Source: a virus. Taken from it: a stretch of DNA of 64,000 nucleotides. The stretch is from the IMG/VR virus record IMGVR_UViG_3300009181_000044, positions 34,858 to 98,857 of that record. One strand, given 5' to 3'. Below are positions 45,922 to 57,155 of this stretch, piece by piece. Numbering within the stretch: the first letter of the stretch is position 1; each line of letters starts with the position of its first letter. Under the pieces are notes generated by a model. That model worked only from the letters and a program-made list of their open reading frames with translations, was not told the DNA's origin and did no database searches. Made by a program: the position numbers and the translations under genes.

Positions 45922-46304
45922 ACCAGCCTTCCGTTCTTATCGTGAGCGCGTGCACCCAACTGGAAACTTACTCTGCCTTCTGGCACTTTTTTGTCAGGAT
46001 TACTACGAGCAGCTTGAACAGCCTCTGATTGTGTTTTAGGATTACTACTAAACAATGCTTTGTCTGCTCTGCCAGTAAACAGCTTAAATATTTTAGCTAA
46101 TCGAATATCAGTATGCGACCACTGTGGGTTGCTAGGCGTTTTTCTACGTGCACGAATATTAGTTAAAGCATTTTTAATTTGCTCATTGTTGGGCTGCTGT
46201 TTCAACAGCCGCTGCAACTTTAGTTTACGATTCTTTTCGTATTTGTTAGAGCTCTTATAAACTGCACTGTAGTTTTGTTTTGATTTACTAGCTGATTTAG
46301 CCAA
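45912..46304 (-). CDS. Basic hypothetical protein
   Basis: Lys/Arg-rich 130 aa ORF. Confidence 0.6.
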   Translation of the reverse strand: MAKSASKSKQNYSAVYKSSNKYEKNRKLKLQRLLKQQPNNEQIKNALTNIRARRKTPSNPQWSHTDIRLAKIFKLFTGRADKALFSSNPKTQSEAVQAARSNPDKKVPEGRVSFQLGARAHDKNGRLVWM

Positions 46305-46305
46305 T

Positions 46306-46560
46306 TTAATATCCTTTTCTTATTTTAAAGATGCCAGTATCTTCTACTGACTTGAGCTCAACAATTTTAGCTTGCTCTAAGTATTCTAAGACTGCAAATG
46401 CTTCACCAAAAGAAAAAATACGTTGCTGCTCTTGATTAACAAGATCAGCAACGTGATTTAAATACTCTAGGCTTACTAGCTTCCAAGTCTCAGTACTTAG
46501 TTCACCAACGAGAGTCTTGAAGGGATTCGTTTTCAAACTGGACTTCGTGGTATTCGACAT
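46306..46560 (-). CDS. Hypothetical protein
   Basis: ORF; start uncertain. Confidence 0.5.
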   Translation of the reverse strand: MSNTTKSSLKTNPFKTLVGELSTETWKLVSLEYLNHVADLVNQEQQRIFSFGEAFAVLEYLEQAKIVELKSVEDTGIFKIRKGY

Positions 46561-46834
46561 GGGCAGCCTCGTCACTTTCAGCAAGTATTTCTAGTTCTTT
46601 AGCCTTGAGCACTTTCATGTGAATATCGTAGCAGGCTTGCAAAGCTGTAATTAGATCAGGTACTTGTTCAATAGAGATAGGCATATAGCGACGGCAAGTA
46701 TCTGTAATAGCGATTTCGTCTAAGCCGCCAGCATTAGTACCATATTCAACATAGTTGTAGAAATAGCTGTCATTATATTCAAAGGTCTCGTCGGTGTCGG
46801 TGAGGTCTAGGACTTCGGAAAAGTAAATTTTCAT
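46502..46834 (-). CDS. Acidic hypothetical protein
   Basis: ORF downstream of a promoter. Confidence 0.6.
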   Translation of the reverse strand: MKIYFSEVLDLTDTDETFEYNDSYFYNYVEYGTNAGGLDEIAITDTCRRYMPISIEQVPDLITALQACYDIHMKVLKAKELEILAESDEAAHVEYHEVQFENESLQDSRW

Positions 46835-46869
46835 AGTTTGTTTGCTTTAAAGTTGTTAGTGAAGTTAAT

Positions 46870-46898
46870 ATTATACTAAAAAATACTCAGCAATTCAA
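46870..46898 (-). promoter_or_regulatory. sigma70-like promoter
   Basis: TTGAAT-17-TATAAT. Confidence 0.7.
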
Positions 46899-46928
46899 GT
46901 AAATATTTTTTAATCAAAGTAGAATAGG

Positions 46929-47003
46929 TGGTGCACTGACTAGGAATTGAACCTAGACTCGACCGATTATGAGTCGGCTGCTTTACCATTAAGCTATCAG
47001 TGC
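46929..47003 (-). tRNA. tRNA-Ile2(CAT) (lysidine type; Met not excluded)
   Basis: Cloverleaf; CCGA-CTCATAA-TCGG anticodon arm like bacterial Ile2; CCA encoded. Confidence 0.8.
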
Positions 47004-47519
47004 TTGTTTTTTAATTTGTTCTAGTGATATTGGGGTGTAATTAATTCTTTCTACTGATACATTAAAGTATCTGCGATCTGGAATTTGTGCTAATTGCATA
47101 CGAACTACATTGTTATGTAGGTGCCCGTGCACATTAAGACCCCAGCGTGCTAGGCTTTCAGGGTGAATGGGAATATGGGTTAATATAATTCCGTCAAACT
47201 GGTGCGATCCACGAATGTCTTTAAAGTACTTTAAGTACTGTTGAGCAGTAGCTAAATCGTGATTGCCTTTAACAAGAACTTTTTCGCCATTAAGTCTACC
47301 TAAGATTTCCAATCCTGTAGCATTACGAGTCATAGTTACGTCACCCAAAAAGTAAACTTTATCCGCAGGACGCACCATACTGTTATGGCAAACAACCATA
47401 TGTTCATTCATATGTTCAACCGAATCAAAAACGCGCAGGGGAGCGCCTTCTGAGTCTTTAAACGTCAAAATGTTTTGGTGATGAAAGTGATGGTCACTTG
47501 CGAAAAATATGTTTGGCAT
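46989..47519 (-). CDS. Calcineurin-like metallophosphoesterase
   Basis: 'SDHHFHH', 'LGD', 'GNHD', 'THIP' and 'HGHLH' motifs. Confidence 0.88.
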   Translation of the reverse strand: MPNIFFASDHHFHHQNILTFKDSEGAPLRVFDSVEHMNEHMVVCHNSMVRPADKVYFLGDVTMTRNATGLEILGRLNGEKVLVKGNHDLATAQQYLKYFKDIRGSHQFDGIILTHIPIHPESLARWGLNVHGHLHNNVVRMQLAQIPDRRYFNVSVERINYTPISLEQIKKQALIA

Positions 47520-47546
47520 AAATAAAAAATCCCTGAACAAGTATAT

Positions 47547-47575
47547 ATTATACTAAATTCAAGGATTTGTGTCAA
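47547..47575 (-). promoter_or_regulatory. Consensus sigma70 promoter
   Basis: TTGACA-17-TATAAT. Confidence 0.8.
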
Positions 47576-47586
47576 GTTTAGATAAT

Positions 47587-47661
47587 TGGTACCTGGTGAC
47601 GGGTTCGAACCGCCGACCTTCGCCGTGTAAAAGCACTGCTCTACCGCTGAGCTAACCAGGC
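47587..47661 (-). tRNA. tRNA-Val(TAC)
   Basis: Cloverleaf with CCA; weak anticodon stem. Confidence 0.85.
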
Positions 47662-47733
47662 AATTCCAACTGTTACCTTACGCTAAACCGTTGGCGTTTT
47701 TGCGGCCTTTTTTAAAGTCACATAGGAACTGAC

Positions 47734-47807
47734 TGGAGCAGGGTGCGAGAATCGAACTCGCAACCGAAGATTGGAAATCTGCTGTTTTACCACTAAACTA
47801 ACCCTGC
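47734..47807 (-). tRNA. tRNA-Gly(TCC)
   Basis: Cloverleaf, U73, CCA. Confidence 0.9.
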
Positions 47808-47815
47808 AAAAAATC

Positions 47816-47890
47816 TGGAGCAGGATGTCGGGTTCGAACCGACGACATTCTCGTTGGCAACGAGACATTCTACCACTGAATTAATCCTGC
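47816..47890 (-). tRNA. tRNA-Gly(GCC)
   Basis: Cloverleaf, U73, CCA. Confidence 0.92.
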
Positions 47891-47891
47891 G

Positions 47892-47983
47892 TGGCGGAAG
47901 ACGGAGGAGTCGAACCCCATCCCTGTTAAGAGAACCTGGTTTTCAAGGCCAGTCGCAGGACCAACCCCGCTGCATCATCTTCC
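47892..47983 (-). tRNA. tRNA-Ser(TGA), non-canonical 8/4-type fold
   Basis: GGAAGATG/CGTCTTCC 8-bp acceptor, 4-bp T-stem, long variable arm, G73-CCA. Confidence 0.8.
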
Positions 47984-47987
47984 AAGA

Positions 47988-48060
47988 CTAGTTATTTTTG
48001 TGTCAGGAAACTAGCAAACCCCGTGAGCGCAGCCCATCCTGTTTTCGCGTCAGCGGAGCC
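47988..48060 (-). ncRNA. Putative kissing-loop/pseudoknot ncRNA
   Basis: Stems GGCTCCG/CGGGGTT, TGACGCG/TGCGCTCA and CTAGTT/AACTAG; loop-loop CAGGA/TCCTG. Confidence 0.5.
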
Positions 48061-48065
48061 AGAAG

Positions 48066-48662
48066 CTAAGAAGCATTTGTAGACAGGTCTGGCAATTTTT
48101 CTTTGCGTGATTCAATCAATTTGTTGATACGCTCAAGCACTTGTTCTGAAGTCATCCAAATGTCTTTGTTGTGCAACATAGCTTGGATTTCTTCGGTAGT
48201 TAAAAAATCTTTGTATACTTCGGTTAAGAACTGTTCTGACCAAGCTCGTTCAAACTGAACTTGATCGTACATTTCTCCGCCTTTACCAAATACTCCAGCC
48301 GAATAGTTGTGAAACATAAATAAGCTGTGTGGAGTTATTTCGTAACTGTGTCCTGACAAAAAGATCATGGTTGCAGCACTCATACAAGCACCTTCTACAC
48401 TAGTGGTGATGTGCGCAGCACTTTCACCCATTACGCGTAAGAATTGAATTGCGCTATATAAGTCTCCGCCACAACTGTTGATATGAAACTTAATCTCATC
48501 GTACTGTCGTGCATTGCGGATAATATCAAACCAGCTAGTATAATTTTCCGGCTCTAGTAGTTCTCCAGACAAATAAAACTCGTAAGAATTACTTGTGTTT
48601 TTGGTAAAAAACTCTGTTGACCCCAATTTAGGGTCAAGTAAATCATCTAGGCTATTTGTCAT
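48066..48662 (-). CDS. clpP: ClpP-family serine protease
   Basis: 'HINSCGG', 'ACMSAAT' (Ser), 'FMFHN' (His) and 'DIWMT' motifs. Confidence 0.85.
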   Translation of the reverse strand: MTNSLDDLLDPKLGSTEFFTKNTSNSYEFYLSGELLEPENYTSWFDIIRNARQYDEIKFHINSCGGDLYSAIQFLRVMGESAAHITTSVEGACMSAATMIFLSGHSYEITPHSLFMFHNYSAGVFGKGGEMYDQVQFERAWSEQFLTEVYKDFLTTEEIQAMLHNKDIWMTSEQVLERINKLIESRKEKLPDLSTNAS

Positions 48663-48674
48663 GTTATTTTATAA

Positions 48675-49217
48675 TTAGAAGCTAAACCCTACTCCGAGAC
48701 CATAAGCATTTTCTTGAATATCTTGATAGCTTTTGCTAGCATTTAAGTTTAATACAACGTTCTTAAGAACTGGGTAGCTATACGTACCAAATACAACTGA
48801 TTGTTTAGTTTCAGTTGTAGCAGTTGTGCCTACGCGAGTTTTTACACCAGCTAAAGCAAAACCAGGGCCAACCTTTAAACCAGCAGTTGCACCAACTAAG
48901 CCGTATTTATAGTCTGAGTTACGAGCACCATTAAGCCCATTGTCAAGACCAACACCAACAAAAGGTGTAACGCCAAACATGGATTTACCAGCTGTAACTT
49001 CTAGGCTATGAATCATGCCACCAGTTTCAAATGTGGCTGTACGGCCTTGTGCACCTAACTGAATGCCACTAACTTCTTTACCAGCACGAATATACTGAGC
49101 AGTACTGCGAGCACCAGAAGCCTGATCGTTAACACTATCGATGTCAACGCTAAAATAATCAGCAGCAGATGCCGCACATGATAAAGCAACTAAAGTTGCA
49201 GTTAAGACTTTTTTCAT
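48675..49217 (-). CDS. Outer-membrane beta-barrel-like protein
   Basis: Signal peptide (ASA|AD), amphipathic beta-strands, C-terminal 'YGLGVGFSF' BAM-type signal. Confidence 0.7.
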   Translation of the reverse strand: MKKVLTATLVALSCAASAADYFSVDIDSVNDQASGARSTAQYIRAGKEVSGIQLGAQGRTATFETGGMIHSLEVTAGKSMFGVTPFVGVGLDNGLNGARNSDYKYGLVGATAGLKVGPGFALAGVKTRVGTTATTETKQSVVFGTYSYPVLKNVVLNLNASKSYQDIQENAYGLGVGFSF

Positions 49218-49233
49218 AAAATTCCTTGTTAAT

Positions 49234-49528
49234 GCCAACTTATTCTGTTACGAGGAAAGTTGGCGGAAACCCTAAGCAGTGTTTAGGCTGCTAATGCGAA
49301 CTGTGAGTCGTTTGCGTTTACTTTTTGTTTAGTTTTTACAGCTACTCTGCTGAGTTGTCCACTCGTTTACTTGTCGCCCTGTCGAAACTATGCAGGCCCA
49401 TCAAAAGCACATAATCCCCACTAGAGCCCTAAGAGGTTTCTTTCATCTAGGACAACTATGTGCTTATGGTGGACCTGGGGGGATTCGCACCCCCGTCCAA
49501 GACACTTTTCTGTTTGCTTCATACAACC
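49234..49528 (-). ncRNA. ssrA: Circularly permuted two-piece tmRNA
   Basis: Acceptor piece ~49528..49467 (T-arm, CAGGTCCACCA) precedes coding piece starting GGGCCTG at 49399 (G3:U70); tag ANDSQFALAA* at 49315..49283; intervening segment 49466..49400; terminal hairpin 49264..49234. Confidence 0.92.
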
Positions 49529-49643
49529 ATATTATAACACACTACCCATGCTAGGCTAAGCTAATCCTAGTTACCCGCGGAAGGTGTGCGTACGTTTACT
49601 CCGCATATATGTATTAAGTGGCGAGTAATGTGCTATAATATGG
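49527..49643 (-). ncRNA. Stem-enclosed structured RNA cassette (tRNA-Thr to tmRNA)
   Basis: CCATATTATAGCACATTAC / GTAGTGTGTTATAATATGG closing stem with internal hairpins GCGGA/TCCGC and CTAGG/CCTAG. Confidence 0.6.
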
Positions 49644-49715
49644 TGCCGACTATCGGATTCGAACTGATGACCTATCGCTTACAAGGCGATTGCACTACCA
49701 CTGTGCTAAGTCGGC
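49641..49715 (-). tRNA. tRNA-Thr(TGT)
   Basis: Cloverleaf with CCA. Confidence 0.92.
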
Positions 49716-49719
49716 AATC

Positions 49720-49796
49720 TGGAGTTGGTGACAGGATTCGAACCTGCATAATACGGATTTGCAATCCGTTGCCTAGCCGTTCAGCTACACACCAAC
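49720..49796 (-). tRNA. tRNA-Cys(GCA)
   Basis: Cloverleaf, U73, CCA; slightly expanded D-region. Confidence 0.85.
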
Positions 49797-49797
49797 A

Positions 49798-50025
49798 TTA
49801 AATCATTTTTCTATCGTGTACTAATGCACTAAAGGTATCAAATAGCTGACCAAACTTTAATTCGTAAATGGTTTCTAAGCCTAACAAGAAGTTGGAAATC
49901 TCATCTTGAGTTATTGGTCCACCACCAATTTTGCCTTCCAAAACATTTTTGTTTAAAAGCTGAATTTCATCAGTAATTCTCCAGCAATCAAGAATTTGTT
50001 GTTCAAGATCAAATCTGTCTGCCAT
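49798..50025 (-). CDS. Hypothetical protein
   Basis: 'DRFDLEQQILDCW' phage-type small protein. Confidence 0.65.
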   Translation of the reverse strand: MADRFDLEQQILDCWRITDEIQLLNKNVLEGKIGGGPITQDEISNFLLGLETIYELKFGQLFDTFSALVHDRKMI

Positions 50026-50155
50026 TTTGTTTTTCCTTTAGTAATTGTTTAATTGCGTTTTCTACTAATTGACTCAGGGTAATGTTTTGCTGTTTTGCTA
50101 AACGCTTGCACTGGTCTAATAATTCTTTATCAAAGTGTATTGTAACTGTTTTCAC
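50009..50155 (-). CDS. Ribbon-helix-helix-like small protein (48 aa, not in ORF track)
   Basis: (V)KTVTIHFDKELLDQCKRLAKQQNITLSQLVENAIKQLL... Confidence 0.55.
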   Translation of the reverse strand: MKTVTIHFDKELLDQCKRLAKQQNITLSQLVENAIKQLLKEKQNGRQI

Positions 50156-50156
50156 G

Positions 50157-50627
50157 TTAATTTGCAAGTATAAATTTTAATCGGTCTGCTGCATAACTAG
50201 CGGCAAATGCGTCTGGCTTTACCTGTGCAGTAATATTACAGGTGCCTTTAATATATCCAATAGCTTGACTTACTACTATGTTACTAGCATATTTATCATT
50301 AGGGTTAATATCTAAGTGAACCTCAACGTGTCTGTCTTCTAGCACATCTGCAAGCTGTTGAAATAGTTCTGATACTTTGTAAACTTCAATCATTAAGCGC
50401 ATTGCAGGTTTATTTGCTTTTTGGTCGTAGTCACGTTCACGCTGTATATCGCCAAAAATTTTGCAACCATGCTTGCCGTCTATATGAACAACAACTGCTA
50501 AAGTATAGTCTGCATACCAGATACCGCGAACATTTAAACGCTCTGAATCAGCGCCTAAGTATATTTTGGTTTCAGGGGATTGCTCTACGATAAACTGTTT
50601 TACTTGTTCAATGTCAAAGGGTTGCAT
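50157..50627 (-). CDS. RNase H-like YkuK/DUF458 family protein
   Basis: 'IYLGADS', 'RLMIEV', 'EVHLDIN' and 'KPDAFAASYAAD' motifs. Confidence 0.8.
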   Translation of the reverse strand: MQPFDIEQVKQFIVEQSPETKIYLGADSERLNVRGIWYADYTLAVVVHIDGKHGCKIFGDIQRERDYDQKANKPAMRLMIEVYKVSELFQQLADVLEDRHVEVHLDINPNDKYASNIVVSQAIGYIKGTCNITAQVKPDAFAASYAADRLKFILAN

Positions 50628-50640
50628 GATATTATGTGTT

Positions 50641-50717
50641 TGGTACGGCCTAAGAGATTCGAACTCCTAACCTTCTCGTTCGTAGCGAGGTGCACTATCC
50701 AGTTGTGCTAAGGCCGT
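50641..50717 (-). tRNA. tRNA-Arg(ACG)
   Basis: Cloverleaf with CCA. Confidence 0.9.
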
Positions 50718-50718
50718 G

Positions 50719-50792
50719 TGGCAGAGGGTACTGGGTTCGAACCAGTGATGACAGAGTCAAAGTCTGTAGTGTTACCGCTACACTAACCCCCA
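50719..50792 (-). tRNA. tRNA-Gln(TTG)
   Basis: Cloverleaf, G73, CCA. Confidence 0.9.
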
Positions 50793-50799
50793 ACTGTAT

Positions 50800-50875
50800 T
50801 GGCTCCCCAGGATGGGATCGAACCACCGACACGTTGATTAACAGTCAACTGCAACTACCGCTGTGCTACTAGGGA
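50800..50875 (-). tRNA. tRNA-Asn(GTT)
   Basis: Cloverleaf with CCA. Confidence 0.9.
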
Positions 50876-50883
50876 ATGTGTTT

Positions 50884-51039
50884 TTACCAGTGGTGAATTA
50901 CACCGGCAACGATAAAACAGTTAGTTACTAAATAACTAACTACTATAATTGTTCTTATTATGGCAACTCGGTCAGCGGTTTCATTATCGCCTGATTTTTC
51001 GCCTAGGGCTTTAGCCCATAATGTCCATAATGTTTTCAT
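50884..51039 (-). CDS. Small membrane protein (51 aa, not in ORF track)
   Basis: MKTLWTLWAKALGEKSGDNETADRVAIIRTIIVVSYLVTNCFIVAGVIHHW. Confidence 0.65.
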   Translation of the reverse strand: MKTLWTLWAKALGEKSGDNETADRVAIIRTIIVVSYLVTNCFIVAGVIHHW

Positions 51040-51043
51040 AATT

Positions 51044-51119
51044 TGGCGGGTCTAGGGGGTAACGATCCCCACTCTTCGGCAGTGACAGTGCCGTGTGCGT
51101 CCATGAACACTTTAGACCC
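51044..51119 (-). tRNA. tRNA-Asp(GTC)
   Basis: Cloverleaf; atypical T-loop ATCGTTA; CCA. Confidence 0.85.
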
Positions 51120-51123
51120 TTAT

Positions 51124-51207
51124 TGGTACGAGAGACGGGACTCGAACCCGTATGCCTTGCGACGAGAGATTTTAAGTCTCTTGAGTATACCATTTCTCCA
51201 CTCTCGC
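51124..51207 (-). tRNA. tRNA-Leu(TAA)
   Basis: Type II cloverleaf with CCA. Confidence 0.9.
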
Positions 51208-51215
51208 GTATATTT

Positions 51216-51308
51216 TGGTGGATTAGGTTGGAGTCGAACCAACATTGTTTTCCCAGAGGGGACGGGTTTACAGCCCGCCGATGCACACGCCATAGCATCA
51301 ACTAATCC
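51216..51308 (-). tRNA. tRNA-Tyr(GTA)
   Basis: Type II; 5-bp D-stem GATGC/GCATC; CCA. Confidence 0.82.
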
Positions 51309-51325
51309 AGTGATTTTGAAAAGTA

Positions 51326-51354
51326 ATTATAACAAAACTTGACCACAAAGTCAA
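51326..51354 (-). promoter_or_regulatory. sigma70-like promoter with overlapping palindrome
   Basis: TTGACT-17-TATAAT; AAACTTGAC-N6-GTCAAGTTT. Confidence 0.7.
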
Positions 51355-51364
51355 GTTTAAAAAT

Positions 51365-51438
51365 TGGTATCCCGTGAGAGAATCGAACTCCCGCCAAGAG
51401 ATTTGGAGTTTCTTGTGCTACCATTACACCAACGAGAT
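51365..51438 (-). tRNA. tRNA-Trp(CCA)
   Basis: Cloverleaf; A73 instead of the usual G73. Confidence 0.82.
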
Positions 51439-51439
51439 A

Positions 51440-51619
51440 TTAAGCGTAAAACCACTGCTCATTTTCTTTTATTAAAGCTTGTTCTGTTGTGAGTATATCA
51501 TAGTACTCGTTTTTATCTATACCTGTATTATCAGGATTTTTTGCAAATGTTCGCGCCCAATTTTCGGCAACTACTTCATCTGCTACAGTTTGGGGCCTTT
51601 GTTTTGAACCTTTTGACAT
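51440..51619 (-). CDS. Small protein (59 aa, not in ORF track)
   Basis: RBS AGGAG; MSKGSKQRPQTVADEVVAENWARTFAKNPD... Confidence 0.6.
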   Translation of the reverse strand: MSKGSKQRPQTVADEVVAENWARTFAKNPDNTGIDKNEYYDILTTEQALIKENEQWFYA

Positions 51620-51631
51620 AACTTCTCCTAT

Positions 51632-51706
51632 TGGTGGACATAAGTAGATTCGAACTACTGACCTAGGCCGTATGAAGACCGTGCACTACCGCTGTGCTAT
51701 ATGTCC
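51632..51706 (-). tRNA. tRNA-Met(CAT), elongator-like
   Basis: Cloverleaf, G1:C72, CCA. Confidence 0.82.
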
Positions 51707-51712
51707 TGAATC

Positions 51713-51758
51713 TGGTTGCACCATTCTCGAAACGATAGGCTGACTACTATCCCTGGCA
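51713..51758 (-). ncRNA. Putative CCA-terminated mini-RNA B
   Basis: GCCA/TGGT pairing, internal GATAG/CTATC hairpin, ends TGCAACCA. Confidence 0.35.
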
Positions 51759-51767
51759 TGGGTTTAT

Positions 51768-51843
51768 TGGTTGCAGTGGCTGGATTCGAACCAGCGATTT
51801 TTGGCTTATGAGACCAAACGGATGACCACTTCCATACACTGCG
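51768..51843 (-). tRNA. tRNA-fMet(CAT)
   Basis: C1:A72 mismatch, CAT anticodon, CCA. Confidence 0.88.
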
Positions 51844-51849
51844 ATAAGT

Positions 51850-51996
51850 TTAATAACAAGTATTAAATGTTCTGCGATTTTGATATGCTTGCCAGATTGA
51901 CTCTAGACGTTGTATATCTTTGTGATCTTGAGGATTTGCATCATTCATGAAATCTTCTATCGTGTAAGGTTTGAACACTTCCCTTACACGCTGCAT
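51850..51996 (-). CDS. Small hypothetical protein (48 aa)
   Basis: MQRVREVFKPYTIEDFMNDANPQDHKDIQRLESIWQAYQNRR... Confidence 0.45.
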   Translation of the reverse strand: MQRVREVFKPYTIEDFMNDANPQDHKDIQRLESIWQAYQNRRTFNTCY

Positions 51997-52000
51997 TAAA

Positions 52001-52228
52001 TCACTTAGCATGGGCAACAAAACCATATAGTTTTTGAGCTTGATCTAAGACTTCATCAAAAGTATACATTTTAGGCATATACTCTTTGTAGTCTGACTCA
52101 ACTTTTTGGCCTTGTTTAACCAATTCTTCAAAGGCTCGCTTTGCAAATTGGGTGTTAATTTCGTGTTGTGTTTCAAGGTACTCTTTAGCCATTTCTAGCA
52201 GTTGAGTACGAATTTCAAATGGATTCAT
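52001..52228 (-). CDS. Small phage protein
   Basis: 'NPFEIRTQLLEMAK...EVLDQAQKLYGFV' pattern; CA-repeat leader. Confidence 0.7.
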   Translation of the reverse strand: MNPFEIRTQLLEMAKEYLETQHEINTQFAKRAFEELVKQGQKVESDYKEYMPKMYTFDEVLDQAQKLYGFVAHAK

Positions 52229-52259
52229 AATATTTCCTGTGTATTGTGTGTGAAAGAAG

Positions 52260-52297
52260 GTCGCGTCTTTTAGAGCCTTAACACGACTATGAGGGCT
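52260..52297 (-). promoter_or_regulatory. Putative H-type pseudoknot
   Basis: AGCCCT/AAGGCT stem 1 and GTCGTGTT/GACGCGAC stem 2. Confidence 0.4.
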
Positions 52298-52301
52298 AAT
52301 A

Positions 52302-52511
52302 TTATTCTGACTTGCCTAAACGACCCATATCGCCATCATGGGTAATACCCTCGGTAGCGGCTACAATAGTAATTGGCATTAATTCGGTGCTTCCAGGTGC
52401 TAAATCGCCTACATCTGCTCCAGTTTTAGGGTCTTTGACTTCAGCATAGCCTTCGTCATAAGGTACGCCAATAGCTGTTGGTTTTGGCTCTATCATTGCT
52501 TTTGTTTTCAT
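52302..52511 (-). CDS. Hypothetical protein
   Basis: RBS AAGGA; 69 aa. Confidence 0.55.
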   Translation of the reverse strand: MKTKAMIEPKPTAIGVPYDEGYAEVKDPKTGADVGDLAPGSTELMPITIVAATEGITHDGDMGRLGKSE

Positions 52512-52528
52512 ATAATTCCTTAAAAGTT

Positions 52529-52603
52529 TGGTATCCATGGACAATTCCGAGATGTCGACCTAACGCTTATCAAGCGTTTGCTCTGCCTCTGAGCTACACG
52601 GAT
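52529..52603 (-). tRNA. tRNA-Ile(GAT)
   Basis: Cloverleaf; atypical T-loop CTCGGAA; CCA. Confidence 0.82.
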
Positions 52604-52608
52604 ATAGT

Positions 52609-52684
52609 TGGTCCTGCCTCGTGGGATCGAACCACGTTCACTGGTTCTTCAAACCAGCGCTATGACCACATCAGCTAAAGCAGG
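52609..52684 (-). tRNA. tRNA-Phe(GAA)
   Basis: Cloverleaf, G37, CCA. Confidence 0.85.
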
Positions 52685-52889
52685 GATTTTCGTCTTGCCA
52701 CTTCTGAGCCTGATAGCTATTGCAATCAACTCGCCAGGGGCACTGTGAAAGAACAATTGATGAGCAATCGTCCATACCCCAACAACGTGGTGGAATACTT
52801 CCACGTATGGCAATAATTTGTTTTACTACCATGTCGTGACGATTGCTTAGGTTAGCTTGCTTGTCAAGCAGTGTTTGTAAATCTGACAT
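52671..52889 (-). CDS. Cys-rich hypothetical protein (72 aa)
   Basis: MSDLQTLL...CWGMDDCS...CPWRVDC; stop codon inside tRNA-Phe. Confidence 0.6.
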   Translation of the reverse strand: MSDLQTLLDKQANLSNRHDMVVKQIIAIRGSIPPRCWGMDDCSSIVLSQCPWRVDCNSYQAQKWQDENPCFS

Positions 52890-52901
52890 AAAACCTCTAG
52901 G

Positions 52902-52972
52902 GGTGGCCACTGGGAGTTGAACCCAGACTAAAAGAATCACAATCTCGGGTGCTGCCATTACACTATGACCAC
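52902..52972 (-). tRNA. tRNA-His(GTG), no encoded G-1 or complete CCA
   Basis: GTGGTCA/TGGCCAC acceptor, C73, followed by CCT; flanked by an inverted repeat. Confidence 0.8.
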
Positions 52973-52986
52973 ACCTAAAAGTTTTA

Positions 52987-53078
52987 TGGCGGAACATATT
53001 GGATTCGAACCAATGGGGCAGCTTTCGCCACCCGCCGGTTTAGCAAACCGGTGCCTTAGACCTCTCGGCCAATGTTCC
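52987..53078 (-). tRNA. tRNA-Ser(GCT)
   Basis: Type II cloverleaf, G73, CCA. Confidence 0.92.
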
Positions 53079-53155
53079 ATATAGGAACACACTACCTAGT
53101 TTTAACTTTTTGCGTAGGACTTTCGCCTGCAACGTAGTAATGTGTTTTTATATGG
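53077..53155 (-). ncRNA. Stem-enclosed RNA cassette (tRNA-Lys to tRNA-Ser)
   Basis: CCATATAAAAACACATTAC / GTAGTGTGTTCCTATATGG stem; inner GAAA tetraloop hairpin. Confidence 0.55.
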
Positions 53156-53227
53156 TAGAGGCACAGAGAATCGAACTCTGATTTACTGGTTAAAAGCCAG
53201 TTACTTTAGCCGTTAAGTTATGCCTCC
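53153..53227 (-). tRNA. tRNA-Lys(TTT)
   Basis: Cloverleaf with CCA. Confidence 0.9.
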
Positions 53228-53340
53228 AGGCTACGCTTCCATTTACCACGAAGCTGTTTGTGGCTTTTTTTATGCGAACCACTGCCGTTACACTTCTGTA
53301 AAGCTAAGGCAACATGGTTCCGTGGTTTGGGTATCTTCAT
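53218..53340 (-). CDS. Small basic protein (40 aa, not in ORF track)
   Basis: RBS AAGGA; MKIPKPRNHVALALQKCNGSGSHKKSHKQLRGKWKRSLEA; stop codon inside tRNA-Lys. Confidence 0.65.
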   Translation of the reverse strand: MKIPKPRNHVALALQKCNGSGSHKKSHKQLRGKWKRSLEA

Positions 53341-53354
53341 AATACTTCCTTGTT

Positions 53355-53396
53355 TGGTGGCGGATTTACCTTTACGTCAGTTACTCTGACAACGCC
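53355..53396 (-). ncRNA. Putative CCA-terminated mini-RNA A
   Basis: GGCG/CGCC-A-CCA with an internal GTCAG/CTGAC hairpin. Confidence 0.45.
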
Positions 53397-53411
53397 AAGG
53401 CTTAAAACTAT

Positions 53412-53486
53412 TGGTGGACCGAGGGAGGATCGAACTCCCACCCGAGGCTTGCAAAGCCACTGTGCTCCCATTATCACTATCAGCCC
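53412..53486 (-). tRNA. tRNA-Ala(TGC)
   Basis: G3:U70, cloverleaf, CCA. Confidence 0.9.
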
Positions 53487-53669
53487 ATTTTAATGTATAT
53501 ACTATTTACTACCCAAGCCGCTAAGCTTGTGACTCTAGTTTATTGTGTTCATGACGCACGCCTGTACTAGAGTTCAGTCTATACCCTATATCATTACTAG
53601 TAAATATAGGTTTCAAAACTGCAAGGTTCCAAACTAAATTGGCCACGAGCAGTATATACATTAAAATGG
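53485..53669 (-). ncRNA. Stem-enclosed ~185-nt multibranch RNA (tRNA-Pro to tRNA-Ala)
   Basis: Perfect 19-bp CCATTTTAATGTATATACT/AGTATATACATTAAAATGG stem; internal stems CCTATAT/ATATAGG and ACTCTAGT/ACTAGAGT. Confidence 0.65.
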
Positions 53670-53740
53670 TCTCAGTGGCAAGAATCGAACTTGCGCTTCA
53701 TGTTCCCAAAACACGGGTGATGCCATTTCACTACACTGAG
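53667..53740 (-). tRNA. tRNA-Pro(TGG)
   Basis: Cloverleaf, C1:G72, CCA. Confidence 0.9.
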
Positions 53741-53747
53741 ACTAAAC

Positions 53748-53975
53748 TTATTTTGTTTTTTGTGGAAAAACTACTTTTGTTTCTTCTTTTTTGATTTCTG
53801 TATCTGCAAATCTACCTGTACCTAAGTTCCAACTATCTTCGGTAAACACCTTAACAGGTTTCCAGAATTTATGTATAATATTGTTAATTGCACAAATTCC
53901 AGCAACAATAACAATAAATCCTGCAACTACTAAAACTCCACCTGCTAAAAAGGTTGATGCTATATCTATATCCAT
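53748..53975 (-). CDS. Single-TM membrane protein
   Basis: N-terminal hydrophobic helix. Confidence 0.6.
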   Translation of the reverse strand: MDIDIASTFLAGGVLVVAGFIVIVAGICAINNIIHKFWKPVKVFTEDSWNLGTGRFADTEIKKEETKVVFPQKTK

Positions 53976-53976
53976 A

Positions 53977-54978
53977 CTAAGTCCTTAAAAGTTGTTGTGA
54001 CGCTATGTTTTTTTCTTTTGATTCACACATTATATCAGACACTGACCTAAATGTCAAGGCCCAAGTATTTACTGCCTGATTCCAGTAAAGATCACTATGA
54101 GCACGTAATTTAGTGCTAGTAAAACCCATTGACTTTAATGCAGCTAAGTCAGGTTTTGTTAGAGGATCATGATCTACAAGCACATCTTCGCGTGACACTG
54201 AGTAGTGAATTACAGGACGAACACCGCGCCATGATTCTGCTACAGCTTGTACTCTGTCGTCGTCAGGCTCAATGTATTCGCCTGTTGCAATCCAGTGATG
54301 ATGAATGTCTAGCACTAGTGCACAGTCGTGCATAAGCTCAAGGGAACTATCAAGACCCCAGGTATACTCAGCATTTTCAATGGTTAAGCAATTGCGGGCT
54401 TCGGGACTCAGCTTTTTTAAAGCAGCTTGAATTCCAGCAGGTCCGCGTTTACCGCCGATATGTACGTTGCACTTAAAGTCTTGAAATTGCTTACCATAGC
54501 CCATATATCTAATAAGGTCACAGTGGTACTCAAACTCAAGGATACTGCGATCAACAATTCCATCATTTTCACTCGCTAAAACGCAAAATTGACCTGGGTG
54601 GAAACTAAGTCGCACATCCAGGCTACGGGCTAGTTCACCAATCTTTGAAAGATTGGTTTCTAGAAATTGTACTACATCGGGTTCAAAATAAAACCACATC
54701 CAGTCATCATGTGTGTAGGCCGTCAGTAGATCCGAGGAGATACGGAACATACGTTGGCTTCGATCTAGACGACCTACCCACACAATTTGGTTATAGAGCG
54801 CACTCATGTTATGGCCCATCAAGTCCCAGAGACGAGCAACGGCTACGTCTTTAGTTTGCTTGTTGAGCCAAGTTATGGTTGTGCCCTTAGTATTCAATTT
54901 AGGGTCGGCAACGCCTTCGGACTTTTGAATCTTACAGGCAAAGCCAACACGAGAAATAGTTTGGTCAAAGCTATACAT
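53977..54978 (-). CDS. uvsE: UV damage endonuclease (UvsE/UVDE)
   Basis: 'RVGFAC', 'FRISS', 'RLSFHPGQF', 'TIEN', 'LDIHHH', 'HYS', 'AHSD' and 'IMCESK.K' motifs. Confidence 0.92.
   Translation of the reverse strand: MYSFDQTISRVGFACKIQKSEGVADPKLNTKGTTITWLNKQTKDVAVARLWDLMGHNMSALYNQIVWVGRLDRSQRMFRISSDLLTAYTHDDWMWFYFEPDVVQFLETNLSKIGELARSLDVRLSFHPGQFCVLASENDGIVDRSILEFEYHCDLIRYMGYGKQFQDFKCNVHIGGKRGPAGIQAALKKLSPEARNCLTIENAEYTWGLDSSLELMHDCALVLDIHHHWIATGEYIEPDDDRVQAVAESWRGVRPVIHYSVSREDVLVDHDPLTKPDLAALKSMGFTSTKLRAHSDLYWNQAVNTWALTFRSVSDIMCESKEKNIASQQLLRT
54029..54057 (-). promoter_or_regulatory. Consensus sigma70 promoter inside the uvsE 3' end, upstream of the main tRNA run
   Basis: TTGACA-17-TATAAT with extended -10 TG. 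Confidence 0.75.
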
Positions 54979-54979
54979 T

Positions 54980-55339
54980 TTATTGCCAAGTTTTATGTGC
55001 TTCAGCAACGTGCTCAAGACCATCATATTCTACAATATGCCAGTCTATGTTATCAGGAATCTCAACAATTTTAATACTGGCATAGTGTCCATTAGCAGCT
55101 TCGCCCAGCTGTTCAATAACCGCAATCAAGTCAGGGTCATTGCGATCACGATAAAAGTCGTAATGATTAATATAAGTAGCGTCTGAGTGTGGACGGCCTG
55201 CCAGGTAATAGTCACTACCTCTCCAGGCTTTTTCAGTGTCTACTACCTCAAATGCAATGTTTTTGCGTGTAAGCAGTGCTTCAAACGCTTGATCGCTAAT
55301 GCCAAATCCGCCAAAATCTGTGTTAATTGCTATTTTCAT
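54980..55339 (-). CDS. Hypothetical phage protein
   Basis: 'INTDFGGFGIS...RNDPDLIAVIEQLG...EYDGLE' pattern. Confidence 0.7.
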   Translation of the reverse strand: MKIAINTDFGGFGISDQAFEALLTRKNIAFEVVDTEKAWRGSDYYLAGRPHSDATYINHYDFYRDRNDPDLIAVIEQLGEAANGHYASIKIVEIPDNIDWHIVEYDGLEHVAEAHKTWQ

Positions 55340-55359
55340 TTTGTGTGCTTTATGTTAAG

Positions 55360-55443
55360 TGGTACCCCAGAGGAGACTCGAACTCCTACGCCTTGCGACA
55401 TTGGCTTCTAAGACCAACGTGTCTACCATTCCACCACCAGGGC
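55360..55443 (-). tRNA. tRNA-Leu(TAG)
   Basis: Type II cloverleaf with CCA. Confidence 0.92.
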
Positions 55444-55448
55444 TTTGA

Positions 55449-55646
55449 TTATTGTGTTTGTTTATATATTTTAATTGCGTCAGCATCTAGGGATGCATAT
55501 ACACGAAATTTGTCTCGGCCAACCTTGTCGTAGAATTCGGCAGTAATTGTTTCAAGATGCTCTAGTTGTTCGATTGTGATTAAATTACAAGCAATATATC
55601 TGCTCATAAAAGCATCAATTAAAAATTCTCGTGTATACGCACTCAT
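55449..55646 (-). CDS. Hypothetical protein
   Basis: RBS GGAG; promoter-like TTGCAT-18-TATAAT at 55699..55670. Confidence 0.6.
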   Translation of the reverse strand: MSAYTREFLIDAFMSRYIACNLITIEQLEHLETITAEFYDKVGRDKFRVYASLDADAIKIYKQTQ

Positions 55647-55713
55647 ATTATTTCTCCAAATCAGACTATATTATAGCCTGATTTAAGGACTTAATGCAAG
55701 TCTATAATTTTAT

Positions 55714-55788
55714 TGGTCCGGCGTAAGGGAATCGAACCCCTATTCGCACTTTAGAAGAATGCTGTCCTATCCATTGAACGAACGCCAG
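55714..55788 (-). tRNA. tRNA-Arg(TCT)
   Basis: Cloverleaf with CCA. Confidence 0.88.
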
Positions 55789-55792
55789 AAGA

Positions 55793-56215
55793 TTAATAGC
55801 CTAGTGGCTTAAATAATTGTGCTTCAAAGAAACTTTGTAGTTCAGGAGCCATGTACTCAAAGTTGTCTGGAATACTAAGCACAACTTGTTTTTGTTCAAT
55901 CTGTTCTAGAAGGTCTTTGTGACCTACAAAATTGCTTTCCAACTGCCACAAGTTTTCTTTGTTAACAAATACAATCTTGTCAGCCCAGTTAATTAGGTTA
56001 GCGCTACAAGGTACTAACGCATAGTTAAAATTTGAGCCACATGAGCGACTGTTGATACCATGTTTGACAGCGAGTGCAGCGCCGGTTGGGCTTCGCAAGA
56101 GACCAGCGCTGCACACAAAAAGCCAACGAGAACGGCTAGTTTGATATGGGTTGCTGTATGGGGCATTAGTTTGAAAGATTGCGGCATTTTTTGTTCCAGC
56201 GCTAAATTCTTGCAT
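55793..56215 (-). CDS. Low-molecular-weight protein tyrosine phosphatase-like protein
   Basis: 'LFVCSAGLLRSPT' CX5R loop; 'WADKI'; 'IPDNFEYM.PEL'. Confidence 0.8.
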   Translation of the reverse strand: MQEFSAGTKNAAIFQTNAPYSNPYQTSRSRWLFVCSAGLLRSPTGAALAVKHGINSRSCGSNFNYALVPCSANLINWADKIVFVNKENLWQLESNFVGHKDLLEQIEQKQVVLSIPDNFEYMAPELQSFFEAQLFKPLGY

Positions 56216-56276
56216 TTTGTTCTCTTTGTTTAAAATATTATTATACACTATTGTAAACAATTAAACAAATTGATTT

Positions 56277-56510
56277 TTATAATCCTGCAATTTGTTCACA
56301 GACTTTACATATAGGATTACCATCTAAGTCTTCAATAGGCTTAGTTGTCCAAATATTGCAGTGTGAACACTGATCTATGTGCTGTTGCAGCAGATCGTAA
56401 TCTAGTCTATCAGTGTCTATGTTAGCATCCGCACACAGCTGTGCCAGGCTTTTTCGCGTACCATTTAAAAGTTTAGTTAACTCTAGGTACTGGGGGTTTA
56501 TATCTGTCAT
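56277..56510 (-). CDS. Zinc-finger protein
   Basis: CSHC...CKVC. Confidence 0.6.
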   Translation of the reverse strand: MTDINPQYLELTKLLNGTRKSLAQLCADANIDTDRLDYDLLQQHIDQCSHCNIWTTKPIEDLDGNPICKVCEQIAGL

Positions 56511-56907
56511 CTAGGTGTTGGTGAGTTTTCTCAAACTCCAGTAAAAACATAATGCAGCAAGCTGCATGAGCAAGGTGTGACAATCCTGACTCAGGGTCTT
56601 TGTCTTCACCATCATTAAAAGCTGTAATATGTCTCATGGCTGCACTTAAGGGTCGTGACCACGTAAACCCATCACGCCAGTTGTGTGCGGCGTACTTTTG
56701 TGCACCAAATGCTAATACAGCTGCTGTTTGGTTCATGGCTTCAGTACTTAGTAGGTGAAGCGGTAATTTGTTTTCGTCAAACTTTATGGCAGTTGCTGCT
56801 AGTTTGCCAACTATAGCTTCAAGTTCAAGTTGTTGTTTGATTTCAGGATAATCATCCAAGGTGCTTCCACCGCCATGATCACCATATTGTTCGTCTAGTT
56901 TAGGCAT
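56473..56907 (-). CDS. dATP/dGTP diphosphohydrolase (DUF5664-like)
   Basis: 'KFDENK', 'FGAQKYAAHNWRDG', 'AAMRH' and 'DPESGLSHLAHAAC' motifs. Confidence 0.85.
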   Translation of the reverse strand: MPKLDEQYGDHGGGSTLDDYPEIKQQLELEAIVGKLAATAIKFDENKLPLHLLSTEAMNQTAAVLAFGAQKYAAHNWRDGFTWSRPLSAAMRHITAFNDGEDKDPESGLSHLAHAACCIMFLLEFEKTHQHLDDRYKPPVPRVN

Positions 56908-56938
56908 ATTAAAAGTAGTATTATAAGGTTAAGTATAT

Positions 56939-56967
56939 ATTATACCCTAAATCCAAATATTTTTCAA
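56939..56967 (-). promoter_or_regulatory. sigma70-like promoter
   Basis: TTGAAA-17-TATAAT. Confidence 0.7.
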
Positions 56968-56969
56968 CT

Positions 56970-57155
56970 TTATTTTTGCTTTGGTTTTAGCAAAGCAGGT
57001 AATTCAGCTTTTGTCTTTATTTGTTTTAATAACTCTGGATTAATACTTAAATTATCAGGATTTATACCTTTTTCTTTGCAGTGTTTATAATACACTGGTA
57101 AAAGAGTGTCTAGGATTAAAACTTCTAATTGCCTGATATAGCTTATATTTGACAT
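56970..57155 (-). CDS. Hypothetical protein
   Basis: RBS GAGG; MSNISYIRQLE... Confidence 0.55.
   Translation of the reverse strand: MSNISYIRQLEVLILDTLLPVYYKHCKEKGINPDNLSINPELLKQIKTKAELPALLKPKQK

What the first reader, a model, noticed from the sequence alone, without database searches (positions are those of the whole stretch)
49398..53669. Recurrent 'CCA-stem-cargo-stem-GG' RNA cassette family in the tRNA array, shared with the permuted tmRNA
Seen: five times on the minus strand, a long stem starts exactly at the encoded CCA of a tRNA or tRNA-like piece and encloses a different cargo. (1) tmRNA intervening segment 49469..49398 (CCATAAGCACATAGTT/GATTATGTGCTTTTGATGG). (2) Thr to tmRNA, 49643..49527 (CCATATTATAGCACATTAC/GTAGTGTGTTATAATATGG). 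(3) Ser to His, 52989..52887, where the cargo is tRNA-His itself. (4) Lys to Ser, 53155..53077 (CCATATAAAAACACATTAC/GTAGTGTGTTCCTATATGG). (5) Pro to Ala, 53669..53485 (perfect 19 bp). In cases 1, 4 and 5 the closing TGG includes nt 1-2 of the next RNA. Cases 1, 2 and 4 share a CACAT/(A)TGTG core while the outer stem sequences differ but still pair. Known: RNase III cuts stems of about 2 helical turns, and T4/T5 tRNA clusters yield stable non-tRNA RNAs. Inference: this is a modular expression chassis in which tRNA processing (RNase P/RNase III) releases small cargo RNAs. The shared geometry with the permuted tmRNA precursor also suggests a route to gene permutation.
Basis: partly seen in the sequence, partly recalled or inferred. 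Interest (0 to 1): 0.85.

Follow-up and report, generated by a model that had tools for sequence, protein, structure and literature searches.

The report
Stem-closed RNA modules between phage tRNAs
In the tRNA gene array of an uncultured phage, long RNA helices run from one tRNA's CCA tail to the first bases of the next RNA and enclose small folded RNAs; two belong to a large, apparently undescribed phage-only family with a nearly constant stem, and the helices probably mark where host enzymes cut these RNAs free.

Summary
All five stems are real, at the stated coordinates, and far beyond chance. They are the five top inverted repeats of the array (folding z -3.8 to -5.7 for the four tested).

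They are not one family but three topologies.
- Cases 2 and 4 belong to a constant-stem hairpin family. I found it in at least 119 viral contigs, almost always co-oriented inside tRNA arrays. It has 147 unique copies and 99 cargo classes, and 12 of its 19 stem pairs show compensatory change.
- Case 5 belongs to a second family: a conserved ~180-nt multi-helix RNA after tRNA-Pro. Its 19-bp closing stem covaries freely (17 members, 37 of 50 pairs compensated).
- Case 3 is a conserved leader-trailer helix around tRNA-His. Its CCA anchoring is incidental.
- Case 1 is the intervening hairpin of a permuted tmRNA. A bacterial tmRNA of the same type has the same geometry.

No Rfam family, cultured phage or paper matched.

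Most likely these are processing and insulation stalks in polycistronic tRNA-mRNA transcripts. Host RNase P, RNase E and/or RNase III would release clamp-closed small RNAs. The nuclease and the cargo function are untested.

Earlier notes of this scan found the constant-stem family on other phage DNA.

The parts
49527..49643 (-). Case 2: constant-stem cassette between tRNA-Thr and the tmRNA acceptor piece. 5' arm 49643-49625, cargo 49624-49546, 3' arm 49545-49527.
   Evidence: 19/19 pairs including 2 G.U; z -4.12. The cargo is 85-97% conserved in L002, L099 and L082, always just upstream of a permuted tmRNA, with 2 compensated pairs in its second hairpin.
53077..53155 (-). Case 4: constant-stem cassette between tRNA-Lys and tRNA-Ser. 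5' arm 53155-53137, cargo 53136-53096, 3' arm 53095-53077.
   Evidence: 17/19 pairs with two A.C mismatches; z -4.15. The cargo is 94-98% conserved in L105 and L015, with different arm variants and different neighbours.
53485..53669 (-). Case 5: ~180-nt multi-helix RNA after tRNA-Pro, closed by a perfect 19-bp stem (arms 53669-53651 and 53503-53485) that ends on G1-G2 of tRNA-Ala.
   Evidence: 17 unique homologues in viral contigs. RNAalifold predicts 50 pairs, 37 with compensatory change, including 10 of the closing-stem pairs.
52887..52989 (-). Case 3: leader-trailer helix that extends the acceptor stem of tRNA-His (52972-52900). The 3' arm holds the Shine-Dalgarno and the AUG (52889) of the next ORF.
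   Evidence: Repeat I1, 28 nt; z -5.67. The helix is kept in L146, L141 (outer part covaries) and L018, and is absent in L063.
49398..49469 (-). Case 1: intervening hairpin of the permuted tmRNA, stacked on the tmRNA acceptor stem.
   Evidence: z -3.80. Homologous hairpins occur in 8 further phage tmRNA genes and one bacterial one. In the fold of the precursor it is continuous with the acceptor stem.
49283..49528 (-). Permuted (two-piece) tmRNA gene: acceptor piece, intervening segment, coding piece with tag ORF.
   Evidence: Rfam RF04321 113.2 bits (gathering score 47) and RF01850 101.1 bits (gathering score 84). ARAGORN reports a permuted tmRNA with a tag ending ALAA.
54029..54057 (-). Consensus sigma-70-type promoter upstream of the unit that holds cases 5, 4 and 3.
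   Evidence: 12 of 12 hexamer matches with TG. No terminator-like site on the minus strand between it and tRNA-Phe.

Best explanation
The helices are RNA-level processing and insulation stalks inside long phage transcripts that mix tRNAs, small ORFs, a two-piece tmRNA and non-coding RNAs.

Shown:
- Each stalk is a helix of about 16-20 bp. Its foot lies on the mature ends of the neighbouring RNAs: the NCCA of the upstream one, and U(-1)G1G2 of the downstream one.
- The helices are conserved by compensatory change on the tRNA strand.
- They enclose conserved or exchangeable small folded RNAs.

Inferred:
- Host tRNA-processing enzymes cut at the foot. RNase P cuts before G1. An RNase E-type cut falls right after CCA, as for the E. 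coli proline tRNAs. RNase III may also cut within the roughly two-turn helix.
- These cuts mature the flanking tRNAs and release the enclosed RNA as a hairpin-clamped molecule that resists exonucleases.
- In the constant-stem family (cases 2 and 4) the nearly invariant arm sequence acts as a common handle. That handle is either a preferred nuclease site or a protein-binding site.
- What the cargo RNAs do is unknown.
For: Reality and register of the stems.

RNA-level selection:
- Constant-stem family: 12 of 19 pairs have compensatory change. 92.1% of cells are paired, against 82.3% in shuffles (0 of 500 reach the observed value) and 30-55% when partners are slid.
- An independent set of 48 copies shows U.G at stem position 16 in 31.
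- Case-5 family: 37 of 50 pairs are compensated.
- The tRNA-His helix covaries in L141.

Context:
- 108 of 114 family copies have a same-strand tRNA within 1.5 kb. Only 5 have an opposite-strand one.
- 54 copies start exactly on an ARAGORN tRNA CCA, and 28 end on a tRNA's first G.
- Copies without an upstream tRNA often follow an acceptor-like hairpin plus one base plus CCA: 34 of 55, against 27% of control positions.

Co-transcription: consensus promoters and no terminators at the stems.

Predicted consequence: in precursor folds the stalk takes G1-G2 and disturbs the downstream acceptor stem, so it must be removed.

Precedents:
- RNase E removes a hairpin that starts right after CCA in one step (PMC5291269).
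- RNase III prefers helices of about 20-22 bp, and mismatches can give stabilising hairpin ends (PMC3867540).
- Permuted tmRNA transcripts are cut by tRNA-processing enzymes (PMC11915505).

The phage itself encodes no RNase III or CCA-adding enzyme, so host enzymes are implied.
Against: - No transcript ends, cleavage data or expression data exist for any member. The nuclease is a guess.
- A generic dsRNA nuclease does not explain why the arms of cases 2 and 4 stay nearly invariant across very different phages, while the arms of the case-5 family drift freely.
- The helix extends 2-4 bp into the mature RNAs. A pure 'cut at the foot' model does not need this.
- Some family copies sit between protein genes with no tRNA-like neighbour (L099).
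- In case 4 the opposite strand pairs slightly better: 18 against 17 of 19.
Confidence: 0.55

Rival explanations
1. Sequence-specific handle. The constant stem is the binding site of a dedicated protein, from the phage or the host. That protein loads, presents or stabilises the variable interior, for example as a decoy or regulator. Processing is secondary.
For: The arms are nearly invariant at stem positions 1-5, 9, 10, 13, 15 and 17. There is a recurrent U.G at position 16 and an A.C at position 8. Meanwhile 147 copies carry 99 unrelated cargo classes. The case-5 family shows the opposite pattern, with free arms and a conserved interior.
Against: No protein family accompanies the cassettes universally. 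The commonest neighbour, PF04308 (RNase H-like), is in 21 of 119 loci and 17 of 50 whole records. The window's phage lacks the DUF2828/DUF7788 proteins seen in 15 loci. Constancy could instead come from recombination between copies.
Confidence: 0.2
2. Timing or masking device. The helices hold CCA ends, G1-G2 of the next tRNA, or a ribosome-binding site in a duplex. This delays tRNA maturation or couples translation of the next ORF to tRNA processing. The interior is only a variable apical region.
For: The 3' arm of case 3 contains the Shine-Dalgarno and AUG of the next ORF, here and in L146. In precursor folds the downstream acceptor stems are disturbed. In L099 the closing GG is part of a Shine-Dalgarno. 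76 of 99 cargo classes are singletons.
Against: Cargo sequences and their internal helices are conserved between phages as well as the flanking tRNAs are. In L141 and L018 the tRNA-His helix has no ORF start in its 3' arm.
Confidence: 0.12
3. DNA-level element. The arms are terminal inverted repeats or single-strand DNA hairpins of a small mobile or recombining cassette (MITE-like or attC-like), and the RNA structure is a by-product.
For: The same cargo class follows five different tRNA types. The same cargo occurs with different arm variants and different neighbours. An 'empty' junction of CCA, three bases and GG exists between adjacent tRNAs in other phages. The A.C mismatches at stem position 8 would be G.T on the other strand.
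Against: The copies are co-oriented with tRNAs, 108 against 5. In the independent set, non-pairs are about half as frequent on the tRNA strand as on the opposite strand (tally). The register on CCA and G1 is exact. No transposase or integrase is associated. Only two copies exist in 98.9 kb, both inside the array.
Confidence: 0.08
4. Chance or neutral leftovers of tRNA gene duplication, with no function.
For: CCA and GG give 2-3 free pairs at any tRNA-tRNA junction.
Against: Shuffle z-scores, the anchored test and the compensatory changes in three independent families.
Confidence: 0.02

Closest known systems
RNase III processing stalks (stems flanking 16S/23S rRNA; phage T7 early-RNA sites)
   Same: Helices of about 20 bp formed by sequences flanking a stable RNA inside a polycistronic transcript. 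The length fits the two-turn RNase III substrate (PMC3867540). Mismatches in the helix are a known way to shape the products.
   Different: Here the foot of the helix coincides with tRNA mature ends (CCA and G1). One family keeps the same arm sequence across many unrelated phages with about 100 different interiors. No cleavage has been shown.
Stable non-tRNA RNAs in the phage T4 tRNA gene cluster (species 1 and 2, rnaC/rnaD). Cited from my own knowledge, not checked in a paper here.
   Same: Small stable RNAs of unknown function, co-transcribed with phage tRNAs and released by host processing enzymes.
   Different: No sequence or Rfam relation. T4 is not known to use a constant closing stem, and no cultured phage matched the cassettes.
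Hairpins directly after CCA in E. coli proK/proL/proM, removed in one step by RNase E (PMC5291269)
   Same: A hairpin begins immediately after the encoded CCA. A single endonucleolytic cut at CCA would free both the tRNA and the hairpin.
   Different: Those hairpins are Rho-independent terminators with a U tract at transcript ends. The phage stems have no U tract and are internal to the transcript.
Intervening segment of two-piece (permuted) tmRNA genes (Rfam RF04321, RF01850; PMC11915505; phage examples in PMC9004378)
   Same: Case 1 is exactly this. The hairpin joins the CCA end of the acceptor piece to G1 of the coding piece. A bacterial beta-type gene (L164) has the same layout.
   Different: In some phages the hairpin carries the core of the constant-stem family (L017). 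In every phage checked, the tmRNA gene is preceded by a constant-stem cassette with the same cargo.
Large ornate RNAs next to tRNAs in phages (GOLLD, ROOL). Cited from my own knowledge.
   Same: Structured non-coding RNAs of unknown function that sit beside tRNA genes in phage genomes.
   Different: Those are much larger and are in Rfam. Nothing in the cargos matched any Rfam model at E up to 1.

Membership tests
Constant-stem hairpin family of phage tRNA arrays (undescribed; defined here and in earlier notes of this scan) | Basal helix of 17-19 bp with the family's consensus arms | tested here: met
   Cases 2 and 4 match both arm patterns with 0 mismatches on the minus strand and align with 33 independent members. 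Case 1 shares only the core. Cases 3 and 5 do not match.
Constant-stem hairpin family of phage tRNA arrays | Lies inside a tRNA array on the tRNA strand, with the 5' arm starting on an NCCA end | tested here: met
   Cases 2 and 4 start on the CCA of tRNA-Thr and tRNA-Lys. Family-wide, 108 of 114 copies are co-oriented with tRNAs and 54 sit exactly on a tRNA CCA.
tRNA-Pro-trailing ~180-nt RNA (second family, defined here) | Conserved internal loops and single-stranded motif, a multi-helix interior, and a 19-bp covarying closing stem after tRNA-Pro | tested here: met
   Case 5 aligns with 16 other unique members. 37 of 50 pairs are compensated.
RNase III processing stalk | Regular double helix of about two turns (~20-22 bp) | tested here: met
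   The stems are 16-20 bp and are continued by cargo or acceptor helices. The criterion is taken from PMC3867540.
RNase III processing stalk | Cleaved by RNase III, with products that have 2-nt 3' overhangs | not testable with these tools
   No RNA end data. The phage has no RNase III of its own.
Permuted two-piece tmRNA gene | Acceptor piece, intervening segment and coding piece in that order, scoring above the Rfam threshold, with a tag reading frame | tested here: met
   RF04321 113.2 bits against a threshold of 47. ARAGORN reports a permuted tmRNA with a tag peptide.
Rho-independent terminator abutting CCA (E. coli proline tRNA type) | Hairpin followed by a U tract | tested here: not met
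   No terminator-like site was reported at any of the five stems. The bases after the 3' arms are tRNA or tmRNA starts.
VIPR vrRNA arrays | Guide made of alternating GGY/NN units | tested here: not met
   No run of GGY at a 5-nt period in any cargo. The definition is from bioRxiv 10.64898/2026.04.26.720920.

The most novel reading that the evidence does not exclude
Phages of many lineages share an RNA 'cassette system'. A nearly invariant 17-19-bp stem, docked on tRNA-like CCA ends, is read by one conserved factor. It serves as a universal expression and release handle for a large, rapidly exchanged repertoire of small structured RNAs, for instance decoys or regulators used in phage-host or phage-phage conflict. 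The same handle matures phage two-piece tmRNAs. This would be an RNA counterpart of integron cassettes.
Probability: 0.25. Interest if true: 0.85.

Novelty: new variant of a known kind. Interest (0 to 1): 0.7.

Why it matters
Phage tRNA arrays are usually read as lists of tRNAs. Here the gaps hold at least two conserved, unnamed RNA families and a common architectural rule: a two-turn helix whose foot lies on the neighbours' mature ends.

If the stalks are processing signals, they explain how phages release non-tRNA RNAs, tRNA-His without an encoded CCA, and both pieces of a tmRNA from one transcript using only host enzymes.

The constant-stem family has about 100 different interiors in roughly 120 contigs and no counterpart in cultured phages, bacteria or Rfam. 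That points to a sizeable unexplored repertoire of phage small RNAs. It also offers a ready-made natural scaffold for expressing stable small RNAs.

Tried and rejected
- Rfam at E up to 1 over 46000-57000 found only tRNAs and the tmRNA.
- BLAST of two cassettes against 50,697 cultured phage records gave only spurious hits.
- A protein directly upstream of tRNA-Pro had no relatives in viral contigs.
- Relatives found through the PF04308 protein mostly lack the cassettes in the stretch held.
- Ro/Y-RNA-like idea: DUF2828/DUF7788 proteins occur in 15 cassette loci but not in this phage.
- The phage has no RNase III or CCA-adding enzyme of its own.
- PF04308 as a universal partner is rejected: 17 of 50 records carry it.
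- Terminator and promoter readings of the arms are rejected. There is no U tract. Only the 3' arm of case 2 resembles an extended -10 box, and the general consensus does not.
- My attempt at a 'null' from non-tRNA CCAT sites in the fetched loci was contaminated by real elements and is not used.
- Five literature searches found no description of these elements.
- Two tmRNA papers (PMC516066, PMC16621) are not held.


Full report
SETTING. The window is part of a 98.9-kb viral contig, about 93% complete. On the minus strand it carries 23 ARAGORN tRNAs and a permuted tmRNA. Rfam confirms the tmRNA: tmRNA_permuted 113 bits and beta_tmRNA 101 bits. Rfam also adds a tRNA at 52532-52603, and finds nothing else between 46000 and 57000 at E up to 1. 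Consensus sigma-70 promoters lie at 54057-54029, 51354-51326 and 47575-47547. There are no minus-strand terminators at the stems, so tRNAs, small ORFs and non-coding spacers are co-transcribed.

OBSERVATION.
- The five stems are the strongest inverted repeats of the array (I1-I4 and I8).
- Each closes in the minimum-energy fold.
- Cases 1-4 have z-scores of -3.8 to -5.7, and 0 of 200 shuffles fold as well.
- When anchored on the encoded CCA, they pair at 14-16 of 16 positions. The other 19 CCA ends of the array pair at 10-13.
- The closing GG is nt 1-2 of the next RNA in cases 1, 2, 4 and 5.

CASES 2 AND 4: A LARGE CONSTANT-STEM FAMILY.
- In 114 hits, an unconstrained partner 19-300 nt upstream pairs at 16 or more of 19 positions, nearly always beginning with CCA.
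- 108 of 114 copies have a same-strand tRNA within 1.5 kb, against 5 with an opposite-strand one. 54 start exactly on a tRNA's CCA and 28 end on a tRNA's first G.
- Copies without a called tRNA upstream often follow an uncalled tRNA, or a short acceptor-like hairpin plus one base plus CCA. This holds for 34 of 55, against 27% of control positions.
- The closest relative, L002, shows this directly. A 378-aa ORF has been inserted after tRNA-Thr, and the cassette is now docked on a 6-bp mini-hairpin followed by ACCA.
- In an independent set whose 3' arms do not match my search pattern, several positions covary. Position 16 is U.G in 31 of 48 copies, and position 8 is often A.C.
- On a 35-sequence alignment, 12 of 19 pairs carry compensatory changes. 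92.1% of cells pair, against 82.3% in shuffles (0 of 500) and 30-55% when partners are slid.
- 147 unique copies carry 99 cargo classes, of which 76 are singletons. The largest class follows five different tRNA types.
- The cargo of case 4 recurs in L105 and L015 with other arm variants and other neighbours. The cargo of case 2 recurs in L002, L082 and L099, always just upstream of a permuted tmRNA. In L099 it lies between two protein genes.
- The whole 98.9-kb genome has only these two copies.
- A two-arm pattern found just six stretches in 185,579 prokaryote genomes. All were short contigs of metagenome bins. Cultured phages gave nothing.
- Earlier notes of this scan describe the same family on other phage DNA.

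CASE 5: A SECOND FAMILY.
- A motif shared with L063 retrieved 21 contigs and 17 unique sequences. All lie right after a tRNA-Pro-like 3' end.
- The interior is conserved and multi-branched. The 19-bp closing stem changes freely while staying paired. 37 of 50 predicted pairs are compensated.
- This is the mirror image of the first family, which has constant arms and a free interior.
- Other CCA-anchored stems with their own conserved interiors exist in the fetched arrays. One example is a ~124-nt class after tRNA-Ala, tRNA-Glu or tRNA-Ile.

CASE 3.
- The helix extends the acceptor stem of tRNA-His, which lacks an encoded CCA.
- It is kept in L146, L141 and L018, and its outer part covaries in L141. 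In L141 and L018 the 5' arm is not on a tRNA.
- In this window and in L146 the 3' arm contains the Shine-Dalgarno and start codon of the next ORF.

CASE 1.
- Eight phage permuted tmRNA genes have an intervening hairpin from CCA to G1, with a related stem base. A ninth, on a contig from a metagenome bin (L161), has the same layout.
- In L017 the stem core is identical to the constant-stem core. In the closest relative, L002, it is not.
- A bacterial beta-type two-piece tmRNA gene (L164) has the same hairpin geometry. The geometry therefore belongs to that tmRNA lineage.
- Phage two-piece tmRNAs are known (PMC9004378). Permuted tmRNA transcripts are said to be cut by tRNA-processing enzymes (PMC11915505).

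MECHANISM.
Shown:
- The helices are real and conserved on the tRNA strand.
- Their register on the mature ends is exact.
- A U precedes G1.
- In precursor folds the stalk takes G1-G2 and disturbs the downstream acceptor stem.

Inferred:
- RNase P cuts before G1.
- An RNase E-type cut falls after CCA, as for the E. coli proline tRNAs (PMC5291269). RNase III may also cut in the roughly two-turn helix (PMC3867540).
- The interior is released as a clamp-closed RNA.
- The phage has no RNase III or CCA-adding enzyme, so host enzymes are implied.

No universal protein partner was found. PF04308, the commonest neighbour and present in this array, is in 17 of 50 whole records. The constancy of the arms in the first family remains unexplained by a generic nuclease and keeps a sequence-specific reader in play.

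NOVELTY. No Rfam family, cultured phage or paper in five searches describes these elements.

Noticed in passing
L002:6649-7806: In the closest relative, a 378-aa ORF is inserted between tRNA-Thr and the case-2 cassette. The cassette is then preceded by a 6-bp mini-hairpin plus ACCA, an acceptor-stem mimic, instead of a tRNA.
   Followed up: partly
window 48066-48662 (-) and 49283-49528 (-): A ClpP-like protease gene (PF00574) lies about 600 nt downstream of the phage tmRNA. The phage may pair its own degradation tag with its own protease subunit.
   Followed up: no
window 53218-53340 (-): A 40-aa very basic ORF lies between tRNA-Ala and tRNA-Lys, and its end runs into tRNA-Lys. A similar ORF precedes tRNA-Lys in L018, and the spacer DNA is conserved in L018 and L063.
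   Followed up: partly
window 52532-52603 (-) and 47896-47983 (-): Rfam finds a tRNA (47.8 bits, probably tRNA-Ile) that ARAGORN missed. It also finds a long-arm tRNA-like sequence that scores 36.6 bits on the tRNA-Sec model, below threshold.
   Followed up: no
window 52900-52972 (-): tRNA-His and its homologues in four relatives carry no encoded CCA: a U or C stands where A76 should be. Its 3' end must be made by cutting plus CCA repair.
   Followed up: partly
window 55647-55695 (-): A 24-nt-arm hairpin lies 18 nt after tRNA-Arg(tct). Its 3' arm covers the Shine-Dalgarno of the next ORF. This is a second possible case of a ribosome-binding site masked by a hairpin next to a tRNA.
   Followed up: no
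Rfam gave no hammerhead hit at E up to 0.1, perhaps because of the long insertion in stem III.
   Followed up: partly
L025:3826-3950, L030:2311-2434, L044:10476-10600, L046:2011-2134: Another conserved interior of about 90 nt, closed by covarying CCA-anchored 19-bp stems, follows tRNA-Ala, tRNA-Glu or tRNA-Ile in different phages.
   Followed up: no
L059:2003-3415 and 14 other cassette loci: Proteins with DUF2828 + DUF7788 domains (possibly Ro/vWA-like; my guess, unchecked) sit near constant-stem cassettes in 15 of 119 loci. They are absent from this phage.
   Followed up: partly
window 49527-49545 (-): The 3' arm of case 2 reads as an extended -10 box just before the tmRNA acceptor piece. It aligns with the -10 region of the Rfam beta_tmRNA consensus, so it may double as a promoter.
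   Followed up: no
window 50157-50627 (-): A PF04308 (YkuK-type RNase H-like) gene lies inside the array. It is the commonest protein neighbour of cassette-bearing arrays, but not a universal one.
   Followed up: yes
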